From: a virus
Strand: one strand, 5' to 3'
DNA length: 64,000 bases
Virus genome (UHGV): UHGV-0214148
A model generated the notes under the pieces. It searched no databases and was not told where the DNA came from. It was given only the letters and a program-made list of their open reading frames with translations. How positions within the stretch are numbered: the first letter of the stretch is position 1; each line of letters opens with the position of its first letter. Both the position numbers and the translations under genes were made by a program. This document shows positions 8,952-63,686 of the stretch, one piece after another.

Positions 8952-8987
8952 TTTAATAACTCCAATGGTGTTACACCTGGATAATAT

Positions 8988-9656
8988 CTATCTAAGAATA
9001 TTTTTAGCGAAAAAAGGATCGACTATAAACTCCTTCACCTGTGAGTCATAACCCGAATGTATTTGATCGCTACTGAGCAAATACCCGTCTAAATCGTGTG
9101 GAAGAATCCAAGAATCCCCCTGTTTAAAAATACCATAATCTGTTGTTCCAGAGGAAAAAACGATTTCCTCTGGAGAGGAATAGATGTGGCGTAAGGCAAG
9201 ATCGGACGGCTTTAACACGATTAATCGAACGGGATGTTGACTGACTGCCTCTTTAATAAACTGTTCACGATTAAAGCAAATTATTTTTTCGGGGTAAGTT
9301 TCGAATTCAGCCCATGTCCGCCTGATAACTAATTTGGAAATCTTTCTCAATTCTTCAGAATGCTCTGCGTAGCCGATACACTCCTTGCGTACTTCATGAT
9401 TTTCTACCGATGCTGCGAATTTTTGGAATAGGTGTTGTTGGAAAAAGCCGTTCTCCGGGATATCACAACCTGCGTTGTATAGTGCAATGATCTCCCACAA
9501 CAACGAAAGAGAAAACACAAATGCTAACTTTTCCACCACTTCCCAATCTTCGGAGTAAGGGGCTTTAAAGCCCCAATACTGCCGTGCGTTATACATAAAG
9601 TGAGTTTGTAAAAACCGAGGGGCTTTTGACAAGACCTCACTATAAACGATCAGCAT
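8988..9656 (-). CDS. hypothetical protein
   Basis: 222-aa ORF overlapping the upstream RNase H gene by 7 bp. Confidence 0.5.
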   Translation of the reverse strand: MLIVYSEVLSKAPRFLQTHFMYNARQYWGFKAPYSEDWEVVEKLAFVFSLSLLWEIIALYNAGCDIPENGFFQQHLFQKFAASVENHEVRKECIGYAEHSEELRKISKLVIRRTWAEFETYPEKIICFNREQFIKEAVSQHPVRLIVLKPSDLALRHIYSSPEEIVFSSGTTDYGIFKQGDSWILPHDLDGYLLSSDQIHSGYDSQVKEFIVDPFFAKNILR

Positions 9657-20149: not shown

Positions 20150-20174
20150 ACCTTAGAGACGCAAAAAAGTAAAA

Positions 20175-23144: not shown

Positions 23145-23175
23145 ACCCACCTCCATAAAGACGGAGTGTGGTGTA

Positions 23176-23218
23176 AAAAGAAAAAAATAAAGAAAGGGAG
23201 AACCCGAAGGTTCTCCCT
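23176..23218 (-). terminator. rho-independent terminator
   Basis: GGGAGAACC-CGAA-GGTTCTCCC hairpin with a long T-run on the minus strand after the 23223-23831 stop. Confidence 0.65.
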
Positions 23219-23222
23219 AACG

Positions 23223-23831
23223 TTATTTGGTATACAGCTGATAACCCATTGAAGCCCAATAATCAATGTTCTTCGCGTTTTCTACCCAAACCTGTCCCGC
23301 CTTTGTGGCTAAGACTTCCATTGTCAATGTACAGATCAGATTTGTTACCTGGATACAATTTCCAGGTGTAACATCATCCAGATAAACCGGATATAAAAAC
23401 GGCGATTTAATGGATTGGTACGGGTAAGAATAGTGGCTACCGACTTTCCACCCTTCTTCTACAGGGCAGAGATTATAAGTGCGTGTTTCAGGAACTGCGT
23501 TTTCAGAGATCCAGTTAACAACATCGGCTTTGATTCGATCGTGGTCGATATAGTAGAACACAACACGTTGTGGGATACTTGTGGTACCAGCCGGGTCTAA
23601 AGCCTCCAACGCCTTAAAAGGCGACGTTAACAATGTTGTACTGTTCTCAAGTGCGTAAACCAACTTTTCGTAAGCGGTTGGCGTTTTGCGTTTAAAATAT
23701 TCCCGTAAGCGAGGGTACGCCAGGAAGCCCTCTACTTCTTCTTCCATTAAGTCAATGAATAAAGGCGTATGCGAAAATCGCTCTGCATTTTGCATCGCTT
23801 CAAGAAAACGAACTAATGTAATTTCGTTCAT
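23223..23831 (-). CDS. hypothetical protein
   Basis: 202-aa ORF; no metallophosphatase motifs, so not an obvious SbcD partner. Confidence 0.5.
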   Translation of the reverse strand: MNEITLVRFLEAMQNAERFSHTPLFIDLMEEEVEGFLAYPRLREYFKRKTPTAYEKLVYALENSTTLLTSPFKALEALDPAGTTSIPQRVVFYYIDHDRIKADVVNWISENAVPETRTYNLCPVEEGWKVGSHYSYPYQSIKSPFLYPVYLDDVTPGNCIQVTNLICTLTMEVLATKAGQVWVENAKNIDYWASMGYQLYTK

Positions 23832-23887
23832 CTGGTCTTTCCTTTTAGATCAAAAAAAGAAGCCCCGAGTAAACGGGGCCGGGCTAA

Positions 23888-24364
23888 TTACAGCCCTAAG
23901 TGCGTGAGTGATAAAATAGGTTGTGTTTCACCTTTAATCGTCGCGAAGGAACGATACATTTCTGCGTTACTTGAAAAAACTTCGTTAGCAACGATACATT
24001 CACCCGTCTCTAAAGAAAGGAGATAAATGTAGTCGCTCCATACGCTTTGTACCAACACCCACTCAAGTGCGGTATCATTTTCGCGTGTTGTTCGCAGGTG
24101 GTGAAAGTAAGGACGGATCGCATCAACTGCCGCATTAAAACGACGGTGATAAATTCGGGTTAAATCAAAGGTCCAGATTGTTTCCAGGTCGACTGGATGT
24201 AATGTGCGCACCGTTTCGATAATCGTCGACTGATCGTTAAGGCGCGAGGCTTCGGCGATACGTAGCAGTTTCCAGGCTACCGTTAAGTTGTGGCGAATTT
24301 GTTCAGGTTTAGCCGACAGGTCATGATGAAATTGCGCAGCTTGGTAAACGTTAGATAATTGCAT
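23888..24364 (-). CDS. hypothetical protein
   Basis: 158-aa ORF preceded by the recurring CCTAAAGGAGTATTAAAATG initiation context. Confidence 0.5.
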   Translation of the reverse strand: MQLSNVYQAAQFHHDLSAKPEQIRHNLTVAWKLLRIAEASRLNDQSTIIETVRTLHPVDLETIWTFDLTRIYHRRFNAAVDAIRPYFHHLRTTRENDTALEWVLVQSVWSDYIYLLSLETGECIVANEVFSSNAEMYRSFATIKGETQPILSLTHLGL

Positions 24365-24430
24365 TTTAATACTCCTTTAGGTAAATATGTCGTAAAAAGG
24401 ACCCCGGACGTACCGGGGCCAAGACTACAC

Positions 24431-24820
24431 TCAAAGATCTAATTCGATAGCACCAGCCATCTTGCCCCGTTCTTCTATAACGATCAGATAACGGTCGCGA
24501 GATTTGCTTTTAGCGAGAGTTAAGACAACGGTAGGGTCGCACGTTTTCGTGGTGATAGGAAGAACCTCTCTTGCGACGGAATCGAGCAGAAAGTAATAAC
24601 CTGCGGGACACATTGTGCCGCCATCAGCTTTTACCAGAATATAGCGCCCGTCTGCGCCGACTTCTTGGCAGATTGTTTCACCGACTTCGCAAACTTCAAA
24701 CCCCGGAGGATTGTACTGGTAATCGGTATTGTTGTTTGGGGTTAGCAGTAAATCGTTAACTTGAGTAGATGCTGCTACACTCAGGGAGAAGAAGAATGCT
24801 AAAACGCAGACGAGACGCAT
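24431..24820 (-). CDS. small secreted protein (signal peptide)
   Basis: MRLVCVLAFFFSLSVAAS signal-like N-terminus; 129 aa. Confidence 0.5.
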   Translation of the reverse strand: MRLVCVLAFFFSLSVAASTQVNDLLLTPNNNTDYQYNPPGFEVCEVGETICQEVGADGRYILVKADGGTMCPAGYYFLLDSVAREVLPITTKTCDPTVVLTLAKSKSRDRYLIVIEERGKMAGAIELDL

Positions 24821-24830
24821 GAGTTACTCC

Positions 24831-25241
24831 TTAAATTTTAAGTTTATCCATAGCTACAACGATAGGTTTTTCCGAAGTGTCTAATATCCCTACCATTGGC
24901 ACACCATCTACGACTTCGAAGAATGGTTTGTTATTACCAGAGCATAGACGTTTGTCGTTGTATTCGAGACGCTGAGCCTTCCACGTTTCGAGGTTGAGTA
25001 CGGACATTGGGCTGTCGTAGCACCAGGCACCACCTTGCTCAACGATGAATACGTATCTGCTACCTTTGTATTTAAACAGGCTCTTTGCCTGGCAGTACAA
25101 CCCGTCTATTTCCGTACAATAGAAATCATCGGTGCTATTGACGTACTTAATATTGTCTGGCAACTGTATTGTCTTTGCTGTAGCGTTGACAGAGAACAGA
25201 ACAGCCATTGCAATGAGAAGAGTATTAATGATAGTTTTCAT
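24831..25241 (-). CDS. small secreted protein (signal peptide)
   Basis: MKTIINTLLIAMAVLFSVNATA signal-like N-terminus; 136 aa. Confidence 0.5.
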   Translation of the reverse strand: MKTIINTLLIAMAVLFSVNATAKTIQLPDNIKYVNSTDDFYCTEIDGLYCQAKSLFKYKGSRYVFIVEQGGAWCYDSPMSVLNLETWKAQRLEYNDKRLCSGNNKPFFEVVDGVPMVGILDTSEKPIVVAMDKLKI

Positions 25242-25252
25242 GATAAAAGTCC

Positions 25253-25738
25253 TTAGTATTTAGATTGTTCTACGTACTTCTTAACCAGGTAAGCGAATTC
25301 GGCAACACCGATATCACCGAACCAAATCAGGTAACCGGGGTCGATGTTGTAGTAATAACCGACGAGTTTCTTGGTGTGTGGGTTGTATAGCGTTACGATG
25401 TATTCCCAACCACAAGCGTTAGCTTTACAACCGCCACTTTCAATCCAGATTTTGTTGTTGATGTTTACCGGATACATGTTACCGCCAGGGCCATCCATGT
25501 AACCTTTAGAGCCGAACATACCATCCAGTCCCACAGGGTCTAGTGTTTTATCAACAACGGCTTTAAACGACTTATCGGTATCGTACAAGTCGTTGATGTT
25601 TGGGCACGCATTTGGCTGGCCTTCCCAAGCGTTTCCATCACAGGTAAGCAATTCGTCTACGGAGGCCGCATCTACAGTTGGCGTGGCACCGATAAACAAG
25701 AAAACCAGAAAGAACATCAGTGTATGTAAACGTTTCAT
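25253..25738 (-). CDS. small secreted protein (signal peptide)
   Basis: MKRLHTLMFFLVFLFIGATPTVDA signal-like N-terminus; 161 aa. Confidence 0.5.
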   Translation of the reverse strand: MKRLHTLMFFLVFLFIGATPTVDAASVDELLTCDGNAWEGQPNACPNINDLYDTDKSFKAVVDKTLDPVGLDGMFGSKGYMDGPGGNMYPVNINNKIWIESGGCKANACGWEYIVTLYNPHTKKLVGYYYNIDPGYLIWFGDIGVAEFAYLVKKYVEQSKY

Positions 25739-25756
25739 TGTAACTACTCCTTTAGA

Positions 25757-26149
25757 TTATTCGGCAGGACGATTTAAGGTAACGCGTCCGATTAATTCAG
25801 CGTTGTGAAAGAAGTCCACAGCGGTATAGTTACCAACTGATAGCGGATGGATACTAACTGACATTACTTTTGGTTGTTCGCAGGCGATATCCGTCAGGCG
25901 TTGGTAGACTTGTGCACGAGTGTCAGCAATGAGTAATCCCGTACACGTTTCACCACGCACTAAACGATAAACTTGCAGTTTACCGAAACTGCGCATTAAC
26001 GTAGGCGTCTCATCCGGGTTGATAATCGGTGACTCAGGAGCCGGTTCGTAATAGCGGACATCCGAATCACCGAAAGCATAAGTGCCAGTAATTCCGACCG
26101 CACAGAAAACAATGATAGTATAAAGTATAGTTCTGATATTCATTTTCAC
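25757..26149 (-). CDS. small secreted protein (signal peptide)
   Basis: MKMNIRTILYTIIVFCAVGITGTYA signal-like N-terminus; 130 aa. Confidence 0.5.
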   Translation of the reverse strand: MKMNIRTILYTIIVFCAVGITGTYAFGDSDVRYYEPAPESPIINPDETPTLMRSFGKLQVYRLVRGETCTGLLIADTRAQVYQRLTDIACEQPKVMSVSIHPLSVGNYTAVDFFHNAELIGRVTLNRPAE

Positions 26150-26171
26150 GCACTCTAAAAAAGATTAATAC

Positions 26172-26633
26172 TTATTTGTTAGGACGGGTGTGTCCACAGT
26201 TCTGGAAGAAAGTTTCAGATAAACGATCGCCTTCTACGGTAAAGTTAGCGGCATCGTTACCATTGATACTCACACTGAAAGTTTTGGCATTACCGATAGC
26301 AATAACGAAAGCAACCCAAGCGTGTTCTGCCTTGTCGCTACCGTCCACGGTAGGGATGTTATAGGTTTTGCCGTTTACGACAATATCCATCGTGTTATCT
26401 TCAGCGTTAGTTGCACCTACGGGTTCCCCGTAATACCAAACCATGCGACCGTAAAATTTGCGATTCACAGTTTCTGTGTCACAGTTGATAGACAGTCCGT
26501 TTCCGGCGGTGTCTTCGATTTCGTAAACTGCCTGGCCAGGGTTTTGTATTTGTTCCCAACTATTGATTGCAGCGTATGCGCTATTGAGGCCGAAAGTTAA
26601 AATGGTTATTAAGAATGTGATAAAGGTTTTCAT
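26172..26633 (-). CDS. small secreted protein (signal peptide)
   Basis: MKTFITFLITILTFGLNSAYA signal-like N-terminus; 153 aa. Confidence 0.5.
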   Translation of the reverse strand: MKTFITFLITILTFGLNSAYAAINSWEQIQNPGQAVYEIEDTAGNGLSINCDTETVNRKFYGRMVWYYGEPVGATNAEDNTMDIVVNGKTYNIPTVDGSDKAEHAWVAFVIAIGNAKTFSVSINGNDAANFTVEGDRLSETFFQNCGHTRPNK

Positions 26634-26679
26634 TGAAATGCTCCTTCGAGTTATGGGGAAGCTCCCACAAATTATGAAA

Positions 26680-27051
26680 TTAAATAACTGTGTTGGGTAA
26701 TGCTTTAATCTGTGTATAACTATCTCCGATACCTCTTATCATTTCCAGACGCTCTTCTGTAGAAAGGCTTTGGTTAATGTCTTTGTCAAGATTGAACAGT
26801 GTCAAGAGTTTTGCAATTGCAACCGTCAAGTTGTCGGACAGCTCGTTGTTTTTACGCCATTCTTCGTTACGGAAAATAGAGATAAGGTCTTTCGCCTGGC
26901 CTTCAGCGTGCGGTTTGGCTAACTGCGCGTCACGCTGTTCGATAAGGTATGCTTCGTTAGTAAGTAAACGTTTCAGGTTTTCTGGGTTAGTGGCAGCGCG
27001 AGTAACGATCATTAATACAACAAACGGGTCTTTAAATAATTCGTTTTTCAT
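26680..27051 (-). CDS. hypothetical protein
   Basis: 123-aa ORF preceded on its sense strand by the conserved ~76-bp leader repeat. Confidence 0.5.
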   Translation of the reverse strand: MKNELFKDPFVVLMIVTRAATNPENLKRLLTNEAYLIEQRDAQLAKPHAEGQAKDLISIFRNEEWRKNNELSDNLTVAIAKLLTLFNLDKDINQSLSTEERLEMIRGIGDSYTQIKALPNTVI

Positions 27052-27057
27052 CTTTAG

Positions 27058-27133
27058 TTCTCCTAAAATGGTTTTCGTTAAGTGAGAGCTTTTGTACTCT
27101 CACCTAAGTAATATATATCTGAAATTATTTTTA
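27058..27133 (-). repeat. conserved ~76-bp 5' leader cassette, copy 1 (hairpin plus AT-rich 21-bp motif)
   Basis: Nearly identical to 63307-63383; contains the inverted repeat GTGAGAG/CTCTCAC (27082-27103) and TAAGTAATATATATCTGAAAT (27105-27125), directly upstream of the 26680-27051 start. Confidence 0.6.
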
Positions 27134-27144
27134 ATATTAACGAA

Positions 27145-27178
27145 CAAAAAAATAAAAGGTGGGGGTAAACCCCCACCG
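27145..27178 (-). terminator. rho-independent terminator
   Basis: GGTGGGGG-TAAA-CCCCCACC hairpin followed by a T-run on the minus strand after the 27182-27760 stop. Confidence 0.7.
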
Positions 27179-27181
27179 ATG

Positions 27182-27760
27182 TTATACATCGAACCGATAC
27201 TGCCGGGAGTTAATGAGGAATTCGGTATTCAGCTCAATCCATTCGAGTAAATCACCCAACGGTAATCGGTTTGGGTTTTCTAACTCAATAGACGCTACCG
27301 GATAAGAGTTTACTAATTCCGTAATTGTATCAATACCCTCTTGCGTTCCATCGTCTTCTAAGGTGATTGTAAACGGCATATCGGTACGATCCGCATTAGG
27401 ATTGTACAAACTGACTTTTGTTGCTTGGACAAACGCAGACAGGTCGTCACGTATAATGCGTGTATCAGGCGATAGAACTACCCAGAGATGCTGCCCTGGC
27501 TGGAGTTTACGTTTTGCGTAGTTTAAGAAAGGACTTGCCATCAAGTTTTCCAAACCACAACAGATGCTACGTAACTGTATTCCGCGCGGATCTCGGTAAT
27601 CCACATCGAAAATTCCCACAGGTTCATTCGCTGCCTGTTTTATCAGAAAGGCCAATACCGTGTCCGCTCTTTCTGGTAAGGAAAGCTCTATTCCCTCAAG
27701 CTCCCCATCGACGAGATTTTCTAACCAAACGTCTTTTCGCATTTCTATTAATCGGTACAC
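27182..27760 (-). CDS. hypothetical protein
   Basis: 192-aa ORF. Confidence 0.5.
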   Translation of the reverse strand: MYRLIEMRKDVWLENLVDGELEGIELSLPERADTVLAFLIKQAANEPVGIFDVDYRDPRGIQLRSICCGLENLMASPFLNYAKRKLQPGQHLWVVLSPDTRIIRDDLSAFVQATKVSLYNPNADRTDMPFTITLEDDGTQEGIDTITELVNSYPVASIELENPNRLPLGDLLEWIELNTEFLINSRQYRFDV

Positions 27761-27772
27761 GGTTCCACCTCA

Positions 27773-28546
27773 CTAATAATTAAGTTTTACATCGGCAATA
27801 AACAGCAATTGTTTACCATGTTGCTGCACTTCTTTCCAACCTAGTTTCATAGCAGCGTCAACAACATCTAACATGCTGTAACGGGACATCAAAGATTCTG
27901 ATTTTGTTCCTGACATTAAGTAAAGTGGCTCATTAGGGCTACGGTCACGTGCGTCAGGAAGTTCCCGAGAGACTGCTGATCCTTCGGGTACGGTAACAAC
28001 ATGAATCACGGTAAATGGTCTCTTGTGCGTCAGATAGATACGAAACCCAACGTGTTCAGATTCATGAAAGACTTTCTTCACAACCACATCTTTTAGTGTC
28101 GTCTGAACATCAGCCCCAGGTAATATCGTGGTTTCACGTGAAACGAAACAACGGCTATTTTCAATCGTGGAGAAATAATTACGTATCGGCAAACTAGCGT
28201 TATGATCGCGCAGTTTTTTGCTCAGTAGATCGAAGTTCAGTTCTTTAACCTTTTCTAGCCATTCTTTGGCTTGTTGAATGTAATAACTACCAACAGCGCG
28301 ATAAGTTAATACCTTACCTGTGCTCACTTGCCAGAGCTTGATGCTTAGTGAATTTGGCTTATAGCGACGATACTCACCACGCGTATAGTTGATGCGCTCG
28401 TAACGCTCTACACCGTCAACGGGTGCAGTTTCGACCGATTGTAATTGCAGCGTACGATCTAATCTATCGGCAAATAGTAGTGATGTTAGCGGGCCTTCGA
28501 TCATATACGGTTCGGTTTTAAAGATATCGTCTAAATGGACTTTCAT
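27773..28546 (-). CDS. hypothetical protein, member of tandem paralog family (conserved C-terminal GW...QLLF motif)
   Basis: C-terminus LGWKEVQQHGKQLLFIADVKLNY resembles the C-termini of the next upstream ORFs. Confidence 0.5.
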   Translation of the reverse strand: MKVHLDDIFKTEPYMIEGPLTSLLFADRLDRTLQLQSVETAPVDGVERYERINYTRGEYRRYKPNSLSIKLWQVSTGKVLTYRAVGSYYIQQAKEWLEKVKELNFDLLSKKLRDHNASLPIRNYFSTIENSRCFVSRETTILPGADVQTTLKDVVVKKVFHESEHVGFRIYLTHKRPFTVIHVVTVPEGSAVSRELPDARDRSPNEPLYLMSGTKSESLMSRYSMLDVVDAAMKLGWKEVQQHGKQLLFIADVKLNY

Positions 28547-28613
28547 TTCTATTTCCTTCTTAACAAAAGCCGCGACTAAAGCGCGGCAGTTAGAGAAAGT
28601 GTATTTTCACTTA

Positions 28614-29765
28614 TTAGAGGTCAGCAACAAACAACAGCTGACTGCCGTATTTTTGCACGTCAGCCCAACCGTAGTCTTTCCCGATTATAGGTAGATGTAA
28701 AATATCCAGCTTCTCGTCTTTCGCTTTTAGTTTCGCCATTAACGCATTGGACTCCTCAGCACTGAGGAGTAATGCTGGCTCTTTTTCAGTACGTCCTTCT
28801 GCGGTTGGGAAGAAATTGTAATAGCTGCGAGTAGGTAAATCGACAGAAAAACTACGATTGCCTATTCTGGCGATGAACGCAACTCCTTCACAGTTAGCAT
28901 CTACACTGCACGACCATCCCGCCTCCGTTAAAAGACCTTTTAACAGACACCACACTTTAAGTTGGTTCTTAGAAACTGTACGGTAAATAGCAAGATGTTC
29001 AGGAAGTAAATGTACGCCCATAACCACGTTTTCAGATTTCTCGTCAAGCAACTCTGGATGCTGTATCGGGAACAATAATTCAGTGATACCCACGTTATCA
29101 ATTTTGTTAACAAAATCAGTTAATTCATCTTTTAAGGTAGACACTTGATTTTCTCCTTTGTCTTCAATAATCAGGTGGGGTTCGCCGCTAATTAAAATGT
29201 GGTAAACGAGATCGTCAGTAGAACGGTAAGTGAGCTTGATTGCTTTATCACTTAATATTTCGTAGCGGAAGAAACTTTCGTACCAACTTGAGCCGAAATC
29301 GTTTTGTGTAAGCTCCTGCTCAACTTTGATGGTTTTTGCTTCAAAGCCGATTAACTCGCTTAATAACGCGAGTTCTTGTTTAGTTAAAATAGCTACACCG
29401 TGAAAGGGCACTTGTTCAAGCTGAAAACATAACTTAGTGACTTCACCATTTGGGAAGACCTTAAACATAATCTTCCGGTTGCTACTCTTTTCCCTAACAA
29501 CGAGTTTACGGTAATTTAGTCCACAATTTGTGTAAGCCGCGAACTGGTAACCTTCAATTTCTTCATCGGAAGTACAGACATCGACAGGCGCGATAATCTC
29601 ATCGTATTCACTAAGTACACAGCAGCCCAATTTATAACCAAACAACGTATGTTGTAAAAAATAGTCGAGGGTTAAGCTTGGTAGTGGCCAAGCCCGATTA
29701 TAGCATCTGTCCATCAGTTCTTTTAGGTACTTGGCATGTCTTGGTTTAGAAATAATATTTCGCAT
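28614..29765 (-). CDS. hypothetical protein, member of tandem paralog family
   Basis: C-terminus YGWADVQKYGSQLLFVADL. Confidence 0.5.
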   Translation of the reverse strand: MRNIISKPRHAKYLKELMDRCYNRAWPLPSLTLDYFLQHTLFGYKLGCCVLSEYDEIIAPVDVCTSDEEIEGYQFAAYTNCGLNYRKLVVREKSSNRKIMFKVFPNGEVTKLCFQLEQVPFHGVAILTKQELALLSELIGFEAKTIKVEQELTQNDFGSSWYESFFRYEILSDKAIKLTYRSTDDLVYHILISGEPHLIIEDKGENQVSTLKDELTDFVNKIDNVGITELLFPIQHPELLDEKSENVVMGVHLLPEHLAIYRTVSKNQLKVWCLLKGLLTEAGWSCSVDANCEGVAFIARIGNRSFSVDLPTRSYYNFFPTAEGRTEKEPALLLSAEESNALMAKLKAKDEKLDILHLPIIGKDYGWADVQKYGSQLLFVADL

Positions 29766-29796
29766 TTTTACTCTCCTTTAGGGGTTTTTTCGTTAC

Positions 29797-30351
29797 TTAA
29801 GCAGGGCAAGCTAAGAACAACAACTGCTGACCGATTTTACGTACGGTATACCAACCGTGGGCTTTAGCGACCGCGATCAACGTTTCCCAGTCATCAACAT
29901 CACATTGCTCGTTCCGAAGTTTTGTAAAGAGTGCTTCGGCTTCGTCTTGGTTTAATAACTTACCTGGATTATCAGGGGTGGTGCCAGAAGGGGTTGGAAA
30001 GAAATCGTATTGACACGCTAAGAGAAAATCAACCAGATACTTGGTGTTCTCTTTATAAACCAGCGTGGAAGTCTTCCCTTCGTGGAAGAAGCTGCCTGTT
30101 TTCCAAACGCTATCTTTCAGTAAGCTCTGAAGGTAATCTGTAAAGCCCGTTCTAAATGGGATATGCGTTTTACGCGTGATGTTGCGACGCAGCGGGGTTT
30201 CCTCTACAGCTTGTACACTTACCCCTACTATCATCGCACCTGGCTGGATAATGGTATTGGTCAGTACGGTATAAGGACGGACAAAGAAATGTTCGCCTAC
30301 GCCTTTTTCAAGGGTTTGGATAATTTCATTTTTCAGTTCAGTTTGAAACAT
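29797..30351 (-). CDS. hypothetical protein, member of tandem paralog family
   Basis: C-terminus HGWYTVRKIGQQLLFLACPA. Confidence 0.5.
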   Translation of the reverse strand: MFQTELKNEIIQTLEKGVGEHFFVRPYTVLTNTIIQPGAMIVGVSVQAVEETPLRRNITRKTHIPFRTGFTDYLQSLLKDSVWKTGSFFHEGKTSTLVYKENTKYLVDFLLACQYDFFPTPSGTTPDNPGKLLNQDEAEALFTKLRNEQCDVDDWETLIAVAKAHGWYTVRKIGQQLLFLACPA

Positions 30352-30377
30352 GGTATATTCTCCTTTTAGGTTTTTAC

Positions 30378-31112
30378 TTACGCGGTTTTAATTAGCAGCA
30401 GATAGCCCTTCGTAATCTCAGCACAACTCCACCCTTTTACGGCAGCGACACCACGAAGGTAATTTTCTGTGTGATACTGTAAAAACGGATCGTCTGGATT
30501 AATCTCAACTAGGTGAGTGGCTTTAGAAATCGTTTCCGCCTCTGGGATTTGTTTTGTTAAGCCTGATGCAATCAGTTCAATAACGCGGTATCCCTCTAAC
30601 CAAGAAACATAGATACGTAAACCGTATAACTTACCGTTATCTTTTAAGGGATAAAGACTGATGCCCCGGCCGAGCAACGTTAATTCTACATCAGTGGGAA
30701 GGTTTTCTACATGCTTGATTAACCCTACCCCATGTCTAAACAGTGGGAAGTAAGAGTATAGCGTCAGCATACTGCTTCCTCCAATAAACGTAACATCGGA
30801 AACGGTAGGCGTGCTGGCAATGAGGCGAACATGTTCCGCTACGACTTCAAGTTCGGCGTCACTGATCAATTTATAGAATAAAATGACGCTGGTTTCGGTA
30901 TTAAGAACAAAGAAGAACCGGTTGGCGTGACTGCTTATCGTGTATTCGTCAACCATGCTGTCGATAACGTCACTGTCTGGATAATCTTCGGGTTTAATTG
31001 TTTCAGCAGAGACTAACTTAGCAGGTTGGGATTGCCCTATTAGTTCATTAACCACCGTAGAAGAAAGTTCTAAACTGGTGTTAGTAAAGATATCGTCTAA
31101 TAATTCACTCAT
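30378..31112 (-). CDS. hypothetical protein, possible distant member of the same paralog family
   Basis: C-terminus KGWSCAEITKGYLLLIKTA is similar to the GW...QLLF motif. Confidence 0.45.
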   Translation of the reverse strand: MSELLDDIFTNTSLELSSTVVNELIGQSQPAKLVSAETIKPEDYPDSDVIDSMVDEYTISSHANRFFFVLNTETSVILFYKLISDAELEVVAEHVRLIASTPTVSDVTFIGGSSMLTLYSYFPLFRHGVGLIKHVENLPTDVELTLLGRGISLYPLKDNGKLYGLRIYVSWLEGYRVIELIASGLTKQIPEAETISKATHLVEINPDDPFLQYHTENYLRGVAAVKGWSCAEITKGYLLLIKTA

Positions 31113-31487
31113 GATTTACTCGCTAATCTCAATAAAGGGGAGTCTATTATTATGGATTGTAAAAGAGGTATAAGGAAGTCACTACGTTCCTCTGGGAAGA
31201 GTATGTCGGTATACTACGTATACCTCCGCTATTTATATCCGTATACATAATGCCCCCTACCCCCTACCGGTATCCCGAGTAGCAGAATAAAGGGGCAGAC
31301 TGTAAAATTTTAGTACCTGTTATCGGAAGGTACTAAATGGAGTGTAGTCTTTAAGCCGTTTGAGCAGCTCATTGAGACTTTCTTTCTTTTTAGTAGACAT
31401 GATCTGTCTCCCCAAATGGTTTAATCAATCCGTTTCGAATGAAACGTGTCCGTAGGGGCTGAACTGGCACTTCAGCCCCTATTCACT

Positions 31488-31508
31488 TAAGTAATATATA
31501 TCTGAAAT
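31488..31508 (+). promoter_or_regulatory. third copy of 21-bp AT-rich motif TAAGTAATATATATCTGAAAT, upstream of 31534 start
   Basis: Exact 21-bp match to the motif inside the two leader repeats, 25 bp upstream of a plus-strand ATG; preceded by the hairpin GGGGCTGAA/TTCAGCCCC. Confidence 0.4.
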
Positions 31509-31533
31509 CAATTCCGATCTAAGGAACGTCCCG

Positions 31534-32499: not shown

Positions 32500-32704
32500 T
32501 TCCCCTTTTTCTTACGTTGTTTTTATATATTGTGACCTGACGTTGGTAAAACTTTTTATCAACACTTTTCTTAAACCCATCGTTTAGTTAAGCAGGCCAC
32601 TTTTTCGCGCACTCTACTCCTCCCTACGGGGAGGAGCTATCTTATGCTTCGGTTGTAACACACGTCGGTCTTAGACCACTAACCTTTTGAAATGGAGAGC
32701 TGTT

Positions 32705-32914
32705 ATGTCTATTAAAGAGTTCTCTTCTGCTGAGCATATTCCAGAAGAGTTTAAGAAAATCGGTAACGTCAGCGCTTTCGGCGATACCGTTGATCATGTA
32801 ACTGGTAAACTGGCTGCTGAAGCCGAAAAAATTGGCGGCGACGCATTCAAAGTTATCGGTATTTCCGGCAACAACAAACTGCACGGTAACGCGATTGTCT
32901 ACAAAAAAGACTAA
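32705..32914 (+). CDS. DUF1471 (BhsA/YdgH/McbA-like) domain protein lacking a signal peptide
   Basis: 69 aa; EEFKKIGNVSAFGDTVDHVTGKLAAEAEKIGGDAFKVIGISGNNKLHGNAIVYKK matches the enterobacterial DUF1471 pattern. Start at the ATG preceded by GGAGAG. Confidence 0.6.
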   Translation: MSIKEFSSAEHIPEEFKKIGNVSAFGDTVDHVTGKLAAEAEKIGGDAFKVIGISGNNKLHGNAIVYKKD

Positions 32915-60683: not shown

Positions 60684-60759
60684 TTTAATACTCCTTTAGG
60701 TAAATACAATAATAGAGGGGTGGTTTACCACCCCTTAGATGAATCTAGAACGTCGTTAA

Positions 60760-61527
60760 TTAACGACGTTTTTGACAATTAGGACAATCGCAATCTTTGT
60801 TGTAAATATCAAAAATCTTTTCGAGAACCATGGCACGTGCTTTTTCGATATAAGAATCCGTTGAAACTATTCGCATAAAGTTCGTTAATGATTTGAAAAC
60901 CTCAACATCGTTGTCGATCAAAACGGTGAGCGTTTCACCTTTGTAAACGGATTGATGAATTTTCTCCTTGTGTTCGTGAACAGCCACACGCATGAGTTCA
61001 TCAGCGGTATCTTTTCCGATACCATGAATCGAAATAAGTCGAACAGCGTCGTTATCGATCAGCTTAACGATAGAACGAATATCTTCCATGAGGTTACGAT
61101 CGTCTTTCTTCAATCGAACGAGGAGCTTGCTGTTATCCCAGTAAATGCCTAAATCGTCGTGATAGAGGGTCTCTAACGCTTCTTTAATTTCCTTAATCTT
61201 CTTACCTTCGTACCAGAGGACGTGCGGTTCGTCTTTCTGCTGTTTTTCGGCCTCGGCTTTCGGTTGTTCAGTCTCGGTCGTTTCTACCCAGGCGTTCGTG
61301 GTACCTTCTGCTGGGTTGAGTAACTCACCGATTTCTTTCGCAATAGTGTCACAAAGATAATCGTTGCTGTGAGTCCAGTAGAACACGATGCTTTCATCAT
61401 TGAGTTGTTCTACACGGAAATGCACACCTTTATCCAGGAATATGCGATAAAGTTGATCGAGTAACTGTGCTTCAGGAACCGGACGGATTTCAGTTTTAAC
61501 GAGCGGGGTAATTTCGATACTAAACAT
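60760..61527 (-). CDS. hypothetical protein
   Basis: 255-aa ORF; C-terminal CDCPNCQKRR. Confidence 0.5.
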   Translation of the reverse strand: MFSIEITPLVKTEIRPVPEAQLLDQLYRIFLDKGVHFRVEQLNDESIVFYWTHSNDYLCDTIAKEIGELLNPAEGTTNAWVETTETEQPKAEAEKQQKDEPHVLWYEGKKIKEIKEALETLYHDDLGIYWDNSKLLVRLKKDDRNLMEDIRSIVKLIDNDAVRLISIHGIGKDTADELMRVAVHEHKEKIHQSVYKGETLTVLIDNDVEVFKSLTNFMRIVSTDSYIEKARAMVLEKIFDIYNKDCDCPNCQKRR

Positions 61528-61549
61528 GTCATTTTTTCCTTTTGGTAAA

Positions 61550-61978
61550 TTAACTGTAATTGTGCTTAAAGAACTCTAAAGCACGCTGGTCGTTTGTAAT
61601 CGCCGTTGTGGACATTCGTTTTAACGCCTGGCGACAGTAAGGGTCATTAAGAATACGTTGCTGCCAAGCATTGACTATTTCCGTCACTGTTTCCCCTTCT
61701 ACAGCAGTGTTAAGTTTATCGAGGCAGTGTCGGCCTAACAGAAACGCAACCGCATAATCTGTAAACATCTCTGTGCCGAAAGGACCATCAGGATAATCGC
61801 AACGTTTACGTACTGAGGTTGCGGTAATGGAGTTATATGCGGTTTTTATTATCTCGTGAAATTGTTCCACAGTTAAGACGTTAACGTCAGTACCTGAAAG
61901 CGTAAGTGATGCCAGTACAGGAATACTGGCTGGGTACTTACGGATATAATCACGCAAATCTGAATTGAGCGTCTTCAT
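61550..61978 (-). CDS. hypothetical protein, paralog of 60252-60683
   Basis: 142 aa; shared N-terminal and central motifs with 60252-60683. Confidence 0.5.
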   Translation of the reverse strand: MKTLNSDLRDYIRKYPASIPVLASLTLSGTDVNVLTVEQFHEIIKTAYNSITATSVRKRCDYPDGPFGTEMFTDYAVAFLLGRHCLDKLNTAVEGETVTEIVNAWQQRILNDPYCRQALKRMSTTAITNDQRALEFFKHNYS

Positions 61979-62726
61979 TCTTGAACCCCTTTGTTTTTAT
62001 CCAATATAAGCAATTTGTACCAACCTGAACTGGTTCGATCCTATCGAGTTCTTCCATCAAAGCCAGATAAGTCTGCCAAACGATTTGACGTTCGAGGAAA
62101 AATGATGTTGTGCCATTAGACCTAACACAAGCACGTACCAGGTGCTCGGTTTGTGAAAACTGTATATTAACGTTGTTCAGGACACGTTGAATAGTATCAG
62201 AATCGTAATGCGCGAAACGATCTTTGTGTACCAGAACCAACTCTATAGGCGTGGAATCGTCATTGACTGAAAAAGGTTCGTCAATACGAATAAGGTTATT
62301 CCGGTGAGGTACCCCATCATAACCGAGCGTATAAACATCCATACCTTCCCCTGGGTTACAGTCGAAATACTCCAGAAGTTTATCAGCGTTTTTCTCCGCC
62401 GAACGTTTAAAGTAAACAATATAAACGCCATGACTAACCTTCTCAACTTCGTATACTTTTTCGGAGAGTGCCCTGAAGATTGCCATGACGTTTAATCTTC
62501 CTTTGTCTTTAGCAACGTAACTTGCAACTAAACACGTTGCTTCACCACGAAGAACATCGTCAATGAACTCTTTTGCTCGTTTTAATTCATCCTCGTTAAA
62601 ACCACCGATAGTGAGCTCATTCCCACAAATCTGATAAGCAAGATGTGGAGTAACGTTTTTCAGGAAACTCGTAATGATGTGCGTGTATGCCCAAAGACTA
62701 CTATTCTTAAACTCGATAGTTTTCAT
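61950..62726 (-). CDS. hypothetical protein
   Basis: 258-aa ORF overlapping the downstream paralog gene by 29 bp. Confidence 0.5.
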   Translation of the reverse strand: MKTIEFKNSSLWAYTHIITSFLKNVTPHLAYQICGNELTIGGFNEDELKRAKEFIDDVLRGEATCLVASYVAKDKGRLNVMAIFRALSEKVYEVEKVSHGVYIVYFKRSAEKNADKLLEYFDCNPGEGMDVYTLGYDGVPHRNNLIRIDEPFSVNDDSTPIELVLVHKDRFAHYDSDTIQRVLNNVNIQFSQTEHLVRACVRSNGTTSFFLERQIVWQTYLALMEELDRIEPVQVGTNCLYWIKTKGFKNEDAQFRFA

Positions 62727-62793
62727 TTTATTTTCCTTTTGGTTTTACAAGTCGAAATAATAGGGTAAGGGAATCCCTTACCCTATAGCGTAA

Positions 62794-63300
62794 TTAAACG
62801 TTGAAGTTAAAACGTACGTCTAAGATATTGGATATAAGATTGAAAAGTTCAACTTTGGTAGCTAAACCGGCTCTTAAGTAAACGTCAAAGCTATCCTTAC
62901 GGAAACTAAATTTAACCGAACTACCTAGCTCCTTTCTGAATTCGTCATAAAGTTCGTACTTATCGACATCCGTTAAGTCTTTATCGAATTCTACCGTGAA
63001 GCGATATTTTTCTTTGGCTTCCATTCCTTTAGTGTAAACCGCACATTTAGCGGTGGTGGTACCGACGATTTCGCACACCATATTGAACATTTCCTCATCG
63101 GTACGTACTGCGGCGGTGTAACCAATATCGATGGAGTCTTTACGGAAACCCATAAAGAACAACGCACCGAAGTGTTTGCGGAAAGCTTTATACAGCGCAT
63201 CTTTTTCATCTTCGGTTAATACGTAGTCCAGTTCAACAGTAAACTTGTAATCTTCTTTAGAAACGAATTCTTTAGCATAATCAACTTTAGTGAAGTTCAT
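62794..63300 (-). CDS. hypothetical protein with internal tandem repeat
   Basis: 168 aa; two ~60-aa internal repeats (YKFTVELDYVLTEDEKDALYKAFRKHFG... and YRFTVEFDKDLTDVDKYELYDEFRKELG...). Preceded by leader repeat copy 2. Confidence 0.5.
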   Translation of the reverse strand: MNFTKVDYAKEFVSKEDYKFTVELDYVLTEDEKDALYKAFRKHFGALFFMGFRKDSIDIGYTAAVRTDEEMFNMVCEIVGTTTAKCAVYTKGMEAKEKYRFTVEFDKDLTDVDKYELYDEFRKELGSSVKFSFRKDSFDVYLRAGLATKVELFNLISNILDVRFNFNV

Positions 63301-63306: not shown

Positions 63307-63383
63307 TTCTCCTAAAATGGTTTTTCGTTAAGTGAGAGCTTTTGTACCCTCACCTAAGTAATATATATCTGAAATTATTTTTA
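63307..63383 (-). repeat. conserved ~76-bp 5' leader cassette, copy 2
   Basis: Near-identical to 27058-27133 (one substitution in the hairpin arm, one extra T), directly upstream of the 62794-63300 start. Confidence 0.6.
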
Positions 63384-63686
63384 TTAAAACCCCGCAATAA
63401 AACTACCTAGCGAGACACGCTGTAGGTATTTTGGTTTGCGTGCCAGGTAACAGTTCTTAGGATTACCTATTGCCATCTGCGCAACTGCACGTTCTAAACG
63501 CGGTGCTTCTAAGATGGCGCGATAGTTCCCTTCGTAATGCATTAACCACGCACACTCTTCAACGAAACGTTTTGCTTCGCGATAATCTAACGTACGAATT
63601 AACTTCTTGCCCCGGTATTGTTTTACATCACCGTTTTGACAAAATACAATAGTTTCACGATTCATTGATAATCTCCCAGAATTCAC
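63384..63686 (-). CDS. hypothetical protein
   Basis: 100-aa ORF. Confidence 0.45.
   Translation of the reverse strand: MNSGRLSMNRETIVFCQNGDVKQYRGKKLIRTLDYREAKRFVEECAWLMHYEGNYRAILEAPRLERAVAQMAIGNPKNCYLARKPKYLQRVSLGSFIAGF

What the first reader, a model, noticed from the sequence alone, without database searches (positions are those of the whole stretch)
27058..27133. Repeated ~76-bp leader cassette with internal hairpin upstream of unrelated genes
Nearly identical ~76-bp sequences lie immediately upstream of two unrelated minus-strand genes (26680-27051 and 62794-63300), about 36 kb apart. Each contains a 7-bp-stem hairpin (GTGAGAG...CTCTCAC) and the AT-rich block TAAGTAATATATATCTGAAAT, then runs into the SD. 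Such conservation in non-coding DNA suggests a shared promoter plus a structured 5' UTR: a protein-binding operator, RNase processing site or translational control element. The second copy has a single substitution in one hairpin arm that could tune stability.
Basis: seen in the sequence. Interest (0 to 1): 0.7.

Follow-up and report, generated by a model that had tools for sequence, protein, structure and literature searches.

The report
Jumbo-phage early promoter and leader cassette
The repeated 78-base element is the standard "early" promoter of a phiKZ-like giant phage, of the kind read by the RNA polymerase the virus carries in its particle. It is fused to a short leader whose first bases fold into a hairpin, so it is real and functional-looking but of an already known kind.

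Summary
Two copies of about 78 nt (27058-27134 and 63307-63384, minus strand) differ by one substitution and one 1-nt indel. They sit in front of unrelated genes. A third copy (promoter part only) lies at 31483-31507, and a variant lies at 8973-8997.

The window is a fragment of an SPN3US/phiEaH2-like jumbo phage. The core A/T-tract-TTTCAGATATATATTAC-N4-GTGA matches the published early promoter consensus of phiKZ-like phages (phiKZ TATATTAC; 201phi2-1; OBP; N1M2). That promoter class is attributed to the virion-packaged multisubunit RNA polymerase. By the published rule (start 6 nt after the motif), transcription would start at G27101 and G63351. The hairpin would then lie at the very 5' end of a roughly 50-nt leader, followed by a generic strong ribosome-binding site.

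The same core recurs several times per genome in 75 phage records and in dozens of metagenomic jumbo-phage contigs. A start-proximal hairpin with varying, mutually complementary arms follows about half of the canonical copies, against about 6% of controls.

The near-identity of the two window copies reflects cassette exchange at the promoter. A relative lacks the 449-nt segment (leader plus the 123-aa gene).

The most likely hairpin role is 5'-end protection of early mRNA; this is inferred, not shown. Verdict: a new member of a known kind, of modest interest.

The parts
27148..27177 (-). Intrinsic terminator closing the upstream operon (the one driven by copy 3): GGTGGGGG-TTTA-CCCCCACC followed by a T-run
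   Evidence: Terminator scan, (stem 27177-27158, 8 pairs, 7 of them G-C); sequence.
27108..27136 (-). Copy 1 promoter: A/T tract (27125-27136) plus core TTTCAGATATATATTAC (27108-27124)
   Evidence: Matches the published phiKZ-like early promoter consensus (PMC7058600 Table 2). The same 17-mer occurs in 80 IMG/VR loci and 75 phage records.
27101..27107 (-). Copy 1 spacer TTAGGT plus the predicted transcription start G27101 (6 nt after the core)
   Evidence: Inferred from the rule AAATATATATTAT-(6N)-G+1 in AR9 and a start 6 nt downstream of the motif in phiKZ and phiR1-37 (PMC5312081). Not measured for this phage.
27082..27103 (-). Copy 1 hairpin GTGAGAGT-ACAAAA-GCTCTCAC. It has 8 pairs as DNA sequence; 6 pairs (27084-27101) lie in the predicted RNA and begin at nt 1
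   Evidence: Folding.
27052..27081 (-). Copy 1 linker UUAACGAAAACCAUUUU, Shine-Dalgarno AGGAG (27060-27064) and spacer up to the ATG at 27051
   Evidence: Sequence. The motif TTTTAGGAGAA / CTAAAGGAGTA is the general ribosome-binding context of this phage's genes.
24400..27051 (-). Six-gene operon of small proteins of unknown function driven by copy 1 (26680-27051, 26172-26633, 25757-26149, 25253-25738, 24831-25241, 24431-24820). It ends at the terminator 24400-24420
   Evidence: ORFs; terminator; PHROG and Pfam hits give only 'unknown function'.
26647..27095 (-). 449-nt segment (hairpin loop and 3' arm, linker, ribosome-binding site, the 123-aa gene and a 33-nt spacer) that is replaced by 32 nt in the related contig L076. 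The break falls exactly after GTGAGAGT
   Evidence: blastn of the window against relatives; alignment; ORFs.
63358..63384 (-). Copy 2 promoter: A/T tract plus core TTTCAGATATATATTAC (63358-63374). It overlaps the 3' end of the upstream ORF 63384-63686, and no terminator lies upstream
63332..63353 (-). Copy 2 hairpin GTGAGGGT-ACAAAA-GCTCTCAC (A>G gives a G.U pair); predicted start G63351
63301..63331 (-). Copy 2 linker (A5 instead of A4), Shine-Dalgarno AGGAG (63309-63313) and spacer up to the ATG at 63300
60716..63300 (-). Four-gene operon driven by copy 2 (62794-63300, 61950-62726, 61550-61978, 60760-61527). It ends at the terminator 60716-60735
31483..31513 (-). Copy 3: same promoter (core 31491-31507; TTAAGTGA; predicted start G31484) with a different leader
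31453..31481 (-). Copy 3 leader hairpin: 11 pairs, AGGGGCUGAAG-UGCCAGU-UCAGCCCCU register, starting 4 nt after the predicted start
   Evidence: 91-nt leader: -30.9 kcal/mol, z -3.2.
8973..8997 (-). Probable variant early promoter TCTTAGATAGATATTATCCAGGTGT in front of gene 8214-8951, with a short leader and no hairpin
   Evidence: Degenerate-consensus scan, (4 mismatches; 0.05 such hits expected by chance); sequence.

Best explanation
The element is a promoter-leader cassette of a phiKZ-like (SPN3US/Erskinevirus-related) jumbo phage.

The upstream half (A/T tract, TTTCAGATATATATTAC, 4 nt, GTGA) is an early-class promoter. In phiKZ, 201phi2-1, AR9 and phiR1-37 this class is used by the virion-packaged multisubunit RNA polymerase immediately after DNA injection, independently of the host polymerase.

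Transcription is predicted to start at the G located 6 nt after TTAC (G27101, G63351, G31484). The conserved first transcribed bases (GAGAGU) then form the 5' arm of a hairpin that leaves no unpaired 5' nucleotide. This is followed by an A-rich, largely unstructured linker and a consensus Shine-Dalgarno sequence about 8 nt before the ATG, giving a 5' UTR of about 50 nt. Each copy drives a short operon of small genes of unknown function that ends at an intrinsic terminator.

The hairpin most likely acts at the RNA level as a 5'-terminal stem-loop that shields early mRNA from 5'-end-dependent decay. This step is inferred, not shown.

The two copies are nearly identical because the leader was copied or exchanged by recombination at the shared promoter when a gene cassette was inserted. 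It is not because the 78 nt form one indivisible regulatory site.
For: Phage identity:
- The window encodes jumbo-phage virion proteins, a UvsX-like recombinase, SbcC and RNase H.
- One virion protein is 84% identical to that of phiEaH2 and 78% to that of SPN3US, with 288 jumbo-phage records matching.
- SPN3US is documented to package a virion RNA polymerase (PMC5105663).

Promoter identity:
- The core matches the published early-promoter consensus: phiKZ TATATTAC; 201phi2-1 TTTRARR_BTATATTACDWHDGTG; OBP and N1M2 WWWWWTTTCARRYAKATATTATYWAAGTGWA (PMC7058600).
- phiKZ's own sites read TTTAAACAG-TATATTAC-N4-(G/T/A)TGA.
- The review PMC7598289 states that every RNA-polymerase-encoding jumbo phage has such an AT-rich motif, centred near -10, upstream of its early operons.

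Multi-copy family:
- 3 perfect copies and 1 variant lie in the window, all co-oriented with downstream genes.
- There are 252 places in 75 phage records and 80 IMG/VR loci.

Transcription start: AR9 uses AAATATATATTAT-(6N)-G+1, and phiKZ and phiR1-37 start 6 nt downstream of the motif (PMC5312081).

Downstream genes: all are small proteins of unknown function, as reported for early promoters of 201phi2-1 (PMC11512511). Sigma-70-like sites are depleted in the region (17 found versus 32.3 +/- 5.6 expected).

Hairpin:
- Among 52 distinct canonical instances, 33 have no unpaired 5' nucleotide, against 20% of controls.
- 24 of 52 have a perfect stem of at least 6 pairs starting at nt 1-2, against 5.7% of controls (p about 1e-16).
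- At least 16 different stem sequences occur, e.g. GAGAG/CUCUC, GAUAG/CUAUC, GAGCAUUGA/UCAAUGCUU and GAUUAGU/ACUAAUC.
- Swapping 3' halves between instances raises the mean energy from -6.6 to -4.25 +/- 0.26 kcal/mol.
- The sense strand folds better than the antisense strand (-6.56 versus -5.70 kcal/mol, p = 0.015).

Cassette exchange:
- Relative L076 is 94% identical on one flank and 85% on the other, but has 32 nt in place of window 26647-27095. There the same promoter directly drives the orthologue of the window's 153-aa gene.
- Relative L049 shares the insertion.
Against: - No transcript data exist for this phage or, as far as I could find, for any SPN3US-like phage. The start site and the early timing rest on analogy with phiKZ, AR9, phiR1-37 and 201phi2-1.
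- No RNA-polymerase subunit gene was identified within the 64-kb window itself.
- The hairpin is not universal. It is missing from about 40% of canonical instances, from most variant promoters (7 of 23 have a stem of at least 5 pairs), from the window's own variant at 8973-8997, and from most phiKZ early promoters examined.
- Evidence that the structure acts in RNA rather than DNA is only suggestive. A detection-unbiased count gives 28 G.U versus 12 A.C positions (p = 0.11), and 11 versus 7 at internal positions.
- Among the close orthologues there is no double-sided compensatory change.
- Many instances are related by descent, so the p-values overstate independence.
- The stabilising function is inferred from E. 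coli mRNA biology, not tested.
Confidence: 0.72

Rival explanations
1. The hairpin is a recognition site for a phage protein acting on the nascent early transcript or on the DNA. It could be an operator, or a nut/boxB-like antitermination or regulatory site, that controls early operons as a group.
For: The 5' arm (GAGAG/GAGAU) is conserved across promoters and phages. Early operons contain internal terminator-like sites, e.g. 28569-28587. Antitermination has been suggested for 201phi2-1 (PMC11512511).
Against: Loop sequence and length (3-11 nt) and the distal stem differ between promoters of one genome: ACAAAA at copies 1 and 2 against a different 11-pair hairpin at copy 3. The stem register slides between instances. 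Many promoters lack the hairpin. The conserved 5' arm is explained more simply as the initially transcribed part of the promoter.
Confidence: 0.1
2. The inverted repeat acts in DNA. A hairpin or cruciform in the melted promoter region would help the virion polymerase to initiate or escape (as with the hairpin promoters of phage N4), or would serve as a recombination hotspot.
For: The repeat abuts the promoter. The unbiased G.U versus A.C count does not exclude a strand-neutral structure. The indel breakpoint lies exactly at the 5' arm.
Against: N4-type promoter hairpins lie upstream of the start and have a fixed 3-nt loop (stated from my own knowledge of N4). Here the structure is downstream of the predicted start, with variable loops. 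G.T pairs are frequent in the stems (28 of 275 positions). The sense strand folds better than the antisense strand. In copy 2 the substitution keeps pairing only on the sense strand. phiKZ promoters of the same class mostly lack the repeat, so it is not required for the polymerase class.
Confidence: 0.08
3. The element is an ordinary host sigma-70 promoter with a leader, and the phage's early genes are read by the host polymerase.
For: TATATT inside the core can be read as a -10 hexamer. The simple scan lists TTAATA-16-TATATT at 63360-63387 (9 of 12 matches).
Against: There is no conserved -35 element, and copy 1 was not picked up by the same scan. Conservation extends over about 30 nt in a pattern unlike sigma-70 promoters. 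That pattern is shared with phages of Pseudomonas, Klebsiella, Erwinia and Salmonella. phiKZ early transcription is rifampicin-resistant and independent of protein synthesis (PMC7598289). Sigma-70-like sites are depleted in the window.
Confidence: 0.04
4. The hairpin has no function of its own. The two window copies look structured only because one recent duplication copied a leader that happens to contain an inverted repeat.
For: The two copies are related by copying. Within the orthologue set no compensatory double change is seen.
Against: Start-proximal hairpins with many unrelated stem sequences follow the same promoter in dozens of loci and phages, far above controls. The swap test shows arm-specific complementarity. 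Copy 2's cassette has about 2 substitutions plus a 3-nt indel across about 86 nt relative to relative L048, while its flanks are only 87-90% identical.
Confidence: 0.08

Closest known systems
Early (virion RNA polymerase) promoters of phiKZ-like jumbo phages (phiKZ, 201phi2-1, OBP, N1M2, AR9, phiR1-37)
   Same: Same core (TATATTAC with an upstream TTTCAR element and A/T tract, and a downstream GTG(A)). Same location at the head of operons of small unknown genes, same multi-copy distribution, and a predicted start 6 nt after the motif.
   Different: This is the clade-specific version: TTTCAGATATATATTAC-YTAG-GTGAGA, with a conserved initially transcribed GAGAG/GAGAU. In the SPN3US/Erskinevirus-like clade a start-proximal hairpin usually follows; phiKZ promoters mostly lack one. 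No transcript mapping exists for this clade in the literature I could search.
PeSL cassettes (promoter-early stem-loop) of T4-type phages (PMC2839356, PMC4122927)
   Same: Short repeated intergenic cassettes that combine a GGGG...CCCC terminator stem-loop, an AT-rich tract, an early promoter and a Shine-Dalgarno sequence. They flank small non-essential genes and serve as crossover points for insertion, deletion or replacement of gene modules. Here copy 1 has exactly that layout, and an indel breakpoint lies inside the cassette.
   Different: PeSL promoters are sigma-70-type and read by the host polymerase. The PeSL stem-loop is the upstream terminator, not a structure in the transcript's 5' end. 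Mini-circles or recombination activity were not, and cannot be, tested here.
5'-terminal stabilising stem-loops of bacterial and phage mRNAs (E. coli ompA leader; phage T7 gene 10 leader, which begins GGGAGACC...). Named from my own knowledge, not checked in the library.
   Same: A hairpin with no or very few unpaired 5' nucleotides, partly built from the conserved initially transcribed sequence of a phage-polymerase promoter, upstream of an unstructured ribosome-binding region.
   Different: The function is unproven here, and the stems are shorter and weaker (6-8 pairs; about -6 to -11 kcal/mol).
Hairpin promoters of the phage N4 virion RNA polymerase
   Same: A virion-packaged polymerase, and an inverted repeat associated with an early promoter.
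   Different: The N4 polymerase is a single-subunit enzyme that recognises a DNA hairpin with a 3-nt loop upstream of the start. Here the repeat lies at or after the predicted start, loops are 3-11 nt, and the conserved recognition element is the AT-rich motif.

Membership tests
phiKZ-type early (virion RNA polymerase) promoter | Highly conserved AT-rich core of about 10 nt (TATATTAC/T) centred near -10 | tested here: met
   ATATATATTAC is present in all three copies. Consensus from PMC7058600 and PMC7598289.
phiKZ-type early (virion RNA polymerase) promoter | Extended upstream element (TTTCAR / T-rich and A/T tract) and a conserved G/TG 4-6 nt downstream that marks the start | tested here: met
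   AAAAATAATTTCAGATATATATTAC-TTAG-GTGA matches the OBP, N1M2 and 201phi2-1 consensus position by position. phiKZ sites show the same layout. The 6N-G+1 rule comes from PMC5312081.
phiKZ-type early (virion RNA polymerase) promoter | Many copies per genome, intergenic, co-oriented with operons of small unknown (early) genes, and conserved in related phages | tested here: met
   3 copies plus 1 variant in 64 kb, all co-oriented. 252 places in 75 phage records and 80 IMG/VR loci. Downstream genes are of unknown function.
phiKZ-type early (virion RNA polymerase) promoter | The phage encodes and packages a multisubunit virion RNA polymerase | not tested
   No polymerase subunit was identified among the window ORFs I scanned. 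This is inferred from close relatives: SPN3US packages gp240, gp241, gp218, gp42 and gp244 (PMC5105663).
phiKZ-type early (virion RNA polymerase) promoter | Primary transcripts start here within minutes of infection, independent of host polymerase and of protein synthesis | not testable with these tools
   Requires dRNA-seq or primer extension with and without rifampicin or chloramphenicol.
T4-type PeSL mobile regulatory cassette | Strong sigma-70-like early promoter | tested here: not met
   There is no conserved -35 element, and the conserved pattern is the phiKZ-type motif.
T4-type PeSL mobile regulatory cassette | Upstream terminator stem-loop (often GGGG...CCCC) joined to the promoter | tested here: inconclusive
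   Present at copy 1 (27158-27177) and at the phiEaH2 and Asesino copies. Absent at copy 2 and copy 3.
T4-type PeSL mobile regulatory cassette | Indels or replacements between related genomes have their breakpoints in the cassette | tested here: met
   One case: window 26647-27095 versus 32 nt in L076, with the breakpoint right after GTGAGAGT.
5'-terminal stabilising stem-loop | Hairpin beginning within about 0-2 nt of the 5' end of the primary transcript | tested here: inconclusive
   Met if the start is the G 6 nt after the motif (0 unpaired nt at copies 1 and 2; 33 of 52 instances). The start site itself is inferred.
5'-terminal stabilising stem-loop | Removal of the hairpin shortens mRNA half-life | not testable with these tools
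   Needs mutant and compensatory constructs with half-life measurements.
N4-type DNA-hairpin promoter | Hairpin with a 5-7 bp stem and a 3-nt loop upstream of the start, recognised as DNA | tested here: not met
   The repeat lies at or after the predicted start, loops are 3-11 nt, and the register is variable.
Any curated RNA family (Rfam 15) | Match at or above the family's gathering score | tested here: not met
   0 matches in the whole window. Only sub-threshold noise appears around the element: 17-24 bits against gathering scores of 51-120.

The most novel reading that the evidence does not exclude
In the enterobacterial SPN3US/Erskinevirus-like branch of nucleus-forming jumbo phages, transcripts made by the virion RNA polymerase carry a class-specific 5' tag. 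This tag is a hairpin whose 5' arm is the conserved initially transcribed sequence of the early promoter. Beyond passive end protection, it would have a dedicated role in the early infection compartment. Examples are helping the sigma-less polymerase clear the promoter, or marking early mRNA for extrusion from the membrane-bound early-infection vesicle, whose mRNA export mechanism is unknown (bioRxiv 10.1101/2023.09.20.558163).
Probability: 0.12. Interest if true: 0.6.

Novelty: new member of a known kind. Interest (0 to 1): 0.33.

Why it matters
For annotation: the motif gives a direct handle on the early transcription units of an uncultured jumbo phage. It marks three or four early operons in this window, each with a predicted start, leader and terminator. 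The small unknown genes behind them are candidate host-takeover genes.

For phage biology:
- Most canonical early promoters of this clade are followed by a start-proximal hairpin with co-varying arms. I did not find this described in the searchable literature. It is cheap to test in the cultured relatives SPN3US and Asesino.
- The indel breakpoint inside the cassette suggests that jumbo phages shuffle early genes at their promoters, much as T4-type phages do at PeSLs.

None of this changes the current picture of jumbo-phage transcription.

Tried and rejected
- Similarity to the SP6/T7 single-subunit polymerase promoter (my first impression from TTAGGTGA): dropped once the jumbo-phage context and the published phiKZ-type consensus were found.
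- Known RNA family: no hit in Rfam at gathering scores for the whole window, and only noise at E <= 1 around the element.
- Terminator or attenuator reading of the hairpin: no U-run follows it in the window copies.
- G.U versus A.C strand asymmetry as proof of an RNA-level structure: my first counts looked decisive but were biased, because the detection rule itself favoured G.U. An unbiased count gives 28 versus 12 (p = 0.11), so I downgraded this to 'suggestive'.
- Formal covariation on the orthologue and paralogue alignment: no double-sided change, which is uninformative at this low divergence.
- One covariance model for the whole family: not built. The stem register and loop length slide between instances, so no single consensus structure exists.
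- Generality in phiKZ: the first 50 kb has 8 early promoters with the same layout but no consistent hairpin. I did not fetch the rest of the genome.
- Published start-site tables for phiKZ and 201phi2-1: the supplements are not held, and the Ceyssens 2014 paper is not held. The 6-nt rule was taken from PMC5312081 instead.
- Searches for any report of promoters or hairpins in SPN3US-like phages found nothing relevant.
Full report
**Observation.** Read on the minus strand, copy 1 is:

...GGTGGGGGTTTACCCCCACC TTTTATTTTTTTGTTCGTTAATATT AAAAATAA TTTCAGATATATATTAC TTAG GTGAGAGTACAAAAGCTCTCAC TTAACGAAAACCATTTT AGGAG AACTAAAG ATG

Copy 2 is:

...TTTTAAT AAAAATAA TTTCAGATATATATTAC TTAG GTGAGGGTACAAAAGCTCTCAC TTAACGAAAAACCATTTT AGGAG AATATACC ATG

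- A 58-nt probe finds just these two sites, with 0 and 1 mismatch. No shuffle of the window gives any match.
- An alignment with relatives delimits the shared block to 27058-27134 versus 63307-63384. It carries one substitution and one 1-nt indel, and the flanks are unrelated.
- The downstream proteins (123 aa and 168 aa) have no detectable similarity.
- The hairpin is an 8-pair stem with a 6-nt loop: -10.9 kcal/mol for copy 1 and -10.0 kcal/mol for copy 2, z about -4.9.
It missed a third copy of the promoter half at 31483-31513 and a probable variant at 8973-8997 (4 mismatches to a degenerate consensus, 0.05 expected by chance).

**What the window is.**
- The ORFs include an SbcC-like nuclease subunit, a UvsX-like recombinase, a large RNase H-type ribonuclease, a radical-SAM protein, a baseplate protein and several very large 'virion structural proteins' of PHROG families typical of giant phages.
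- One virion protein is 84% identical to that of Erwinia phage phiEaH2, 82% to Asesino and 78% to Salmonella phage SPN3US. It has homologues in 288 jumbo-phage records.
- At the DNA level nothing in the phage collection matches the 2.5 kb around the element, except the element itself in phiEaH2, Stratton and Asesino.
- The window is therefore a fragment of a new phiKZ-like (nucleus-forming, Chimalliviridae-type) jumbo phage close to the Erskinevirus and Seoulvirus genera. Closer relatives exist only as metagenomic contigs of 220-225 kb.

**What the upstream half is.**
- The 17-mer TTTCAGATATATATTAC occurs as 252 places in 75 phage records of this clade. It also occurs in 80 IMG/VR loci, mostly on contigs of 200-246 kb.
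- A paper on Klebsiella jumbo phage N1M2 tabulates the predicted early promoters of phiKZ-like phages (PMC7058600):
  - phiKZ: TATATTAC
  - 201phi2-1: TTAWTAVAA_HYWTTTRARR_BTATATTACDWHDGTG
  - OBP: BSHAWWWWWTTTYARRYAKATATTATYWWADTG
  - N1M2: TBYAWWWWWTTTCARRYAKATATTATYWAAGTGWA
- The window element (AAAAATAATTTCAGATATATATTACTTAGGTGA) fits this consensus position by position. phiKZ's own sites read ...TTTAAACAG TATATTAC NNNN (G/T/A)TGA.
- According to the review PMC7598289:
  - Every RNA-polymerase-encoding jumbo phage has such a highly conserved AT-rich motif, centred near -10, in front of its early operons.
  - Wherever transcripts were profiled, the motif proved to be the early promoter.
  - Early transcription is independent of host polymerase and of protein synthesis, so it is attributed to the virion-packaged multisubunit polymerase.
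- For the start site, PMC5312081 gives AAATATATATTAT-(6N)-G+1 for AR9. It also states that phiKZ and phiR1-37 have a conserved start 6 nt downstream of the consensus.
- Applied here, the start is the second G of GTGAGAG: G27101, G63351 and G31484. This step is inference by homology of the motif, not measurement.

**Transcription units.**
- Copy 1 heads six small genes and ends at a terminator at 24400-24420.
- Copy 2 heads four genes and ends at a terminator at 60716-60735.
- Copy 3 heads the genes from about 31400 down to 27182 and ends at the terminator 27158-27177, which directly precedes copy 1.
- All downstream proteins are of unknown function. This matches the report that early promoters of 201phi2-1 sit in front of hypothetical genes (PMC11512511).
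- Sigma-70-like sites are under-represented in this region: 17 against 32.3 +/- 5.6 expected.

**The hairpin and leader.**
With the inferred start, the RNA begins GAGAGUACAAAAGCUCUC. This gives six pairs starting at nt 1 (-6.6 and -5.7 kcal/mol) and a 5' UTR of 50-51 nt. The Shine-Dalgarno sequence lies about 20 nt beyond the hairpin and is not part of it, although the predicted fold of copy 1 pairs the ribosome-binding region in a weak, separate helix.

The ribosome-binding part (TTTTAGGAGAA) is simply the usual context of this phage's genes. Only the hairpin and the linker CTTAACGAAAACC are special to the two copies.

I collected every distinct sequence that follows the exact 17-mer and keeps the TGA box, giving 52-55 instances.
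- Most show a compact hairpin beginning at the RTGA box: 46 of 54 minimum-free-energy structures start within its first three bases. The mean z against shuffles is -2.1.
- Counted from the inferred start, 33 of 52 have no unpaired 5' nucleotide, against 20% of random 34-mers from the same loci.
- 24 of 52 have a perfect stem of at least 6 pairs starting at nt 1-2, against 5.7% of random segments (binomial p about 1e-16).
- The stems are not one sequence. At least 16 different arm pairs occur, including GAGAG/CUCUC, GAUAG/CUAUC (SPN3US), GAGAUUGC/GUAAUCUU, GAGCAUUGA/UCAAUGCUU, GAUUAGU/ACUAAUC and AUGAUAC/GUAUCAU. Loops are 3-11 nt and the register slides.
- Exchanging 3' halves between instances weakens folding from -6.6 to -4.25 +/- 0.26 kcal/mol, and none of 30 permutations came close to the real value.

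So what is conserved is a structure next to the start, built on the conserved first transcribed bases. It is not a sequence.

Several limits apply.
- The hairpin is missing from about 40% of canonical instances.
- It is missing from most weaker variant promoters: only 7 of 23 have a stem of at least 5 pairs.
- It is missing from most of the eight phiKZ promoters I examined. It is therefore a clade habit, not a requirement of the polymerase class.
- Among the close orthologues and paralogues only one-sided (wobble) changes occur.
- Many instances are related by descent, so the p-values overstate independence.

**RNA or DNA?**
- The sense strand folds better than the antisense strand: -6.56 versus -5.70 kcal/mol, Wilcoxon p = 0.015.
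- In copy 2 the substitution preserves pairing only in the sense RNA.
- My first G.U versus A.C counts overstated the case, because the search rule itself favoured G.U. A count that treats both equally gives 28 G.U against 12 A.C positions (p = 0.11), and 11 against 7 internally.
- I therefore treat an RNA-level structure as likely but not demonstrated.

**Why the two copies are nearly identical.**
- Relative L076 (a contig of 220,786 bp) is 94% identical to window 16626-26646 and 85% identical to window 27096-28823. It has only 32 nt where the window has 449 nt (26647-27095).
- In L076 the same promoter directly drives the orthologue of the window's 153-aa gene (26172-26633), through its own, different hairpin leader.
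- The window, and its closest relative L049, carry instead a leader like that of copy 2 plus the 123-aa gene. The junction falls exactly after GTGAGAGT.
- Copy 2's leader is present at its own locus in all four relatives (L038, L042, L048, L075). The shared leader is thus ancestral at locus 2 and secondary at locus 1.
- This is the behaviour described for PeSL cassettes of T4-type phages, where repeated terminator/early-promoter/Shine-Dalgarno cassettes act as crossover points for gene modules (PMC2839356, PMC4122927). Copy 1 even has the same layout: a GGGG...CCCC terminator, an A/T tract, a promoter and a Shine-Dalgarno sequence.
- It is an analogy of mechanism, not membership. The promoter here is not sigma-70-type, and I have a single breakpoint.
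- Copy 2 is also better conserved than its surroundings. It has about 2 substitutions plus a 3-nt indel across about 86 nt relative to L048, while its flanks are only 87-90% identical.

**Mechanism, with the steps marked.**
- Shown by sequence and comparison: the element belongs to the phiKZ-type early promoter family. It is multi-copy and co-oriented with operons that end at terminators. A start-proximal hairpin is enriched after such promoters in this clade. The leader was exchanged as a cassette.
- Inferred from the literature on related phages: the virion polymerase uses it, the start lies 6 nt after the motif, and the timing is early.
- Inferred from general mRNA biology (my own knowledge: 5'-terminal stem-loops such as those of the ompA and T7 gene 10 leaders hinder 5'-end-dependent decay by RppH and RNase E): the hairpin protects early mRNA.
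- Rivals: a protein-recognition or antitermination site, a DNA-level structure, a host sigma-70 promoter, and an accidental repeat. They are weighed in the rival list, and none fits the variable loops and stems, the clade-wide enrichment and the promoter consensus as well.

**Novelty and score.** The promoter class is known and is routinely predicted in such genomes, so this is a new member in an unsequenced relative. The regular start-proximal hairpin and the cassette breakpoint are modest additions. I did not find them described, but the searchable library is incomplete. The most novel reading still open is that the hairpin is a dedicated tag of virion-polymerase transcripts, connected with promoter escape or with export from the early-infection vesicle, whose export mechanism is unknown. 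I give that about 0.12.

Noticed in passing
24362-24387 and 60681-60706 (minus strand): An identical 26-nt leader, TATTTACCTAAAGGAGTATTAAAATG, lies directly after the terminators that close the two early operons driven by copies 1 and 2. It precedes genes 23888-24364 and 60252-60683. This is a second repeated junction, possibly another promoter or leader class.
   Followed up: partly
14992-15019, 15611-15632, 56710-56737: Recurrent, partly bidirectional terminators share the stem CCCTACTCC...GGAGTAGGG. The same stem precedes the promoter copy in phiEaH2 and Asesino (L001 about 3055-3085; L002). It recalls the conserved terminator motif reported for phiKZ.
   Followed up: no
14000-33000: Sigma-70-like promoter matches are under-represented (17 found against 32.3 +/- 5.6 in shuffles). 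This is consistent with a phage that does not rely on the host polymerase.
   Followed up: no
49400-49798 and 49809-50207 (+ strand): Two adjacent ORFs are rich in Cys, Gly, Ser and Thr, with CxxxC-type repeats (GCSGTCGGACSGRCSTGCSGACSGGCSG...). They correspond to the 12-nt-periodic DNA repeats D1 and D5.
   Followed up: no
62794-63300 (minus strand): The protein behind copy 2 has a sub-threshold Pfam match to the NTF2-fold immunity protein family Imm-NTF2 (23.8 bits against a cut-off of 25; E = 5e-5). This is a hint at an anti-toxin or defence-related early gene.
   Followed up: no
8973-8997 (minus strand): A variant of the early promoter (TCTTAGATAGATATTATCCAGGTGT) lies in front of gene 8214-8951, with a predicted leader of only about 23 nt and no hairpin.
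   Followed up: partly
31483-31533: Copy 3 of the promoter lies in a divergent intergenic region and overlaps the leader of the + strand baseplate gene (31534-32499). An early and a presumably late transcription unit therefore share about 50 bp.
   Followed up: no
60252-60683 and 61550-61978 (minus strand): These two genes are paralogues (both PHROG 8484, unknown function). One lies inside the copy 2 early operon and the other just after its terminator.
   Followed up: no
L004-L083 leaders, e.g. L004, L010, L011, L007: Many early leaders in SPN3US- and Erskinevirus-like phages share a further box, (A/T)ATCGAC(C/T)AT, 8-15 nt upstream of the Shine-Dalgarno sequence. The window has the related CGAAAACCAT. 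Its role is unknown.
   Followed up: no
28614-29765 and 27773-28546 (minus strand): Two genes of the copy 3 operon share a C-terminal domain (PHROG 26772), with a terminator-like hairpin between them at 28569-28587.
   Followed up: no
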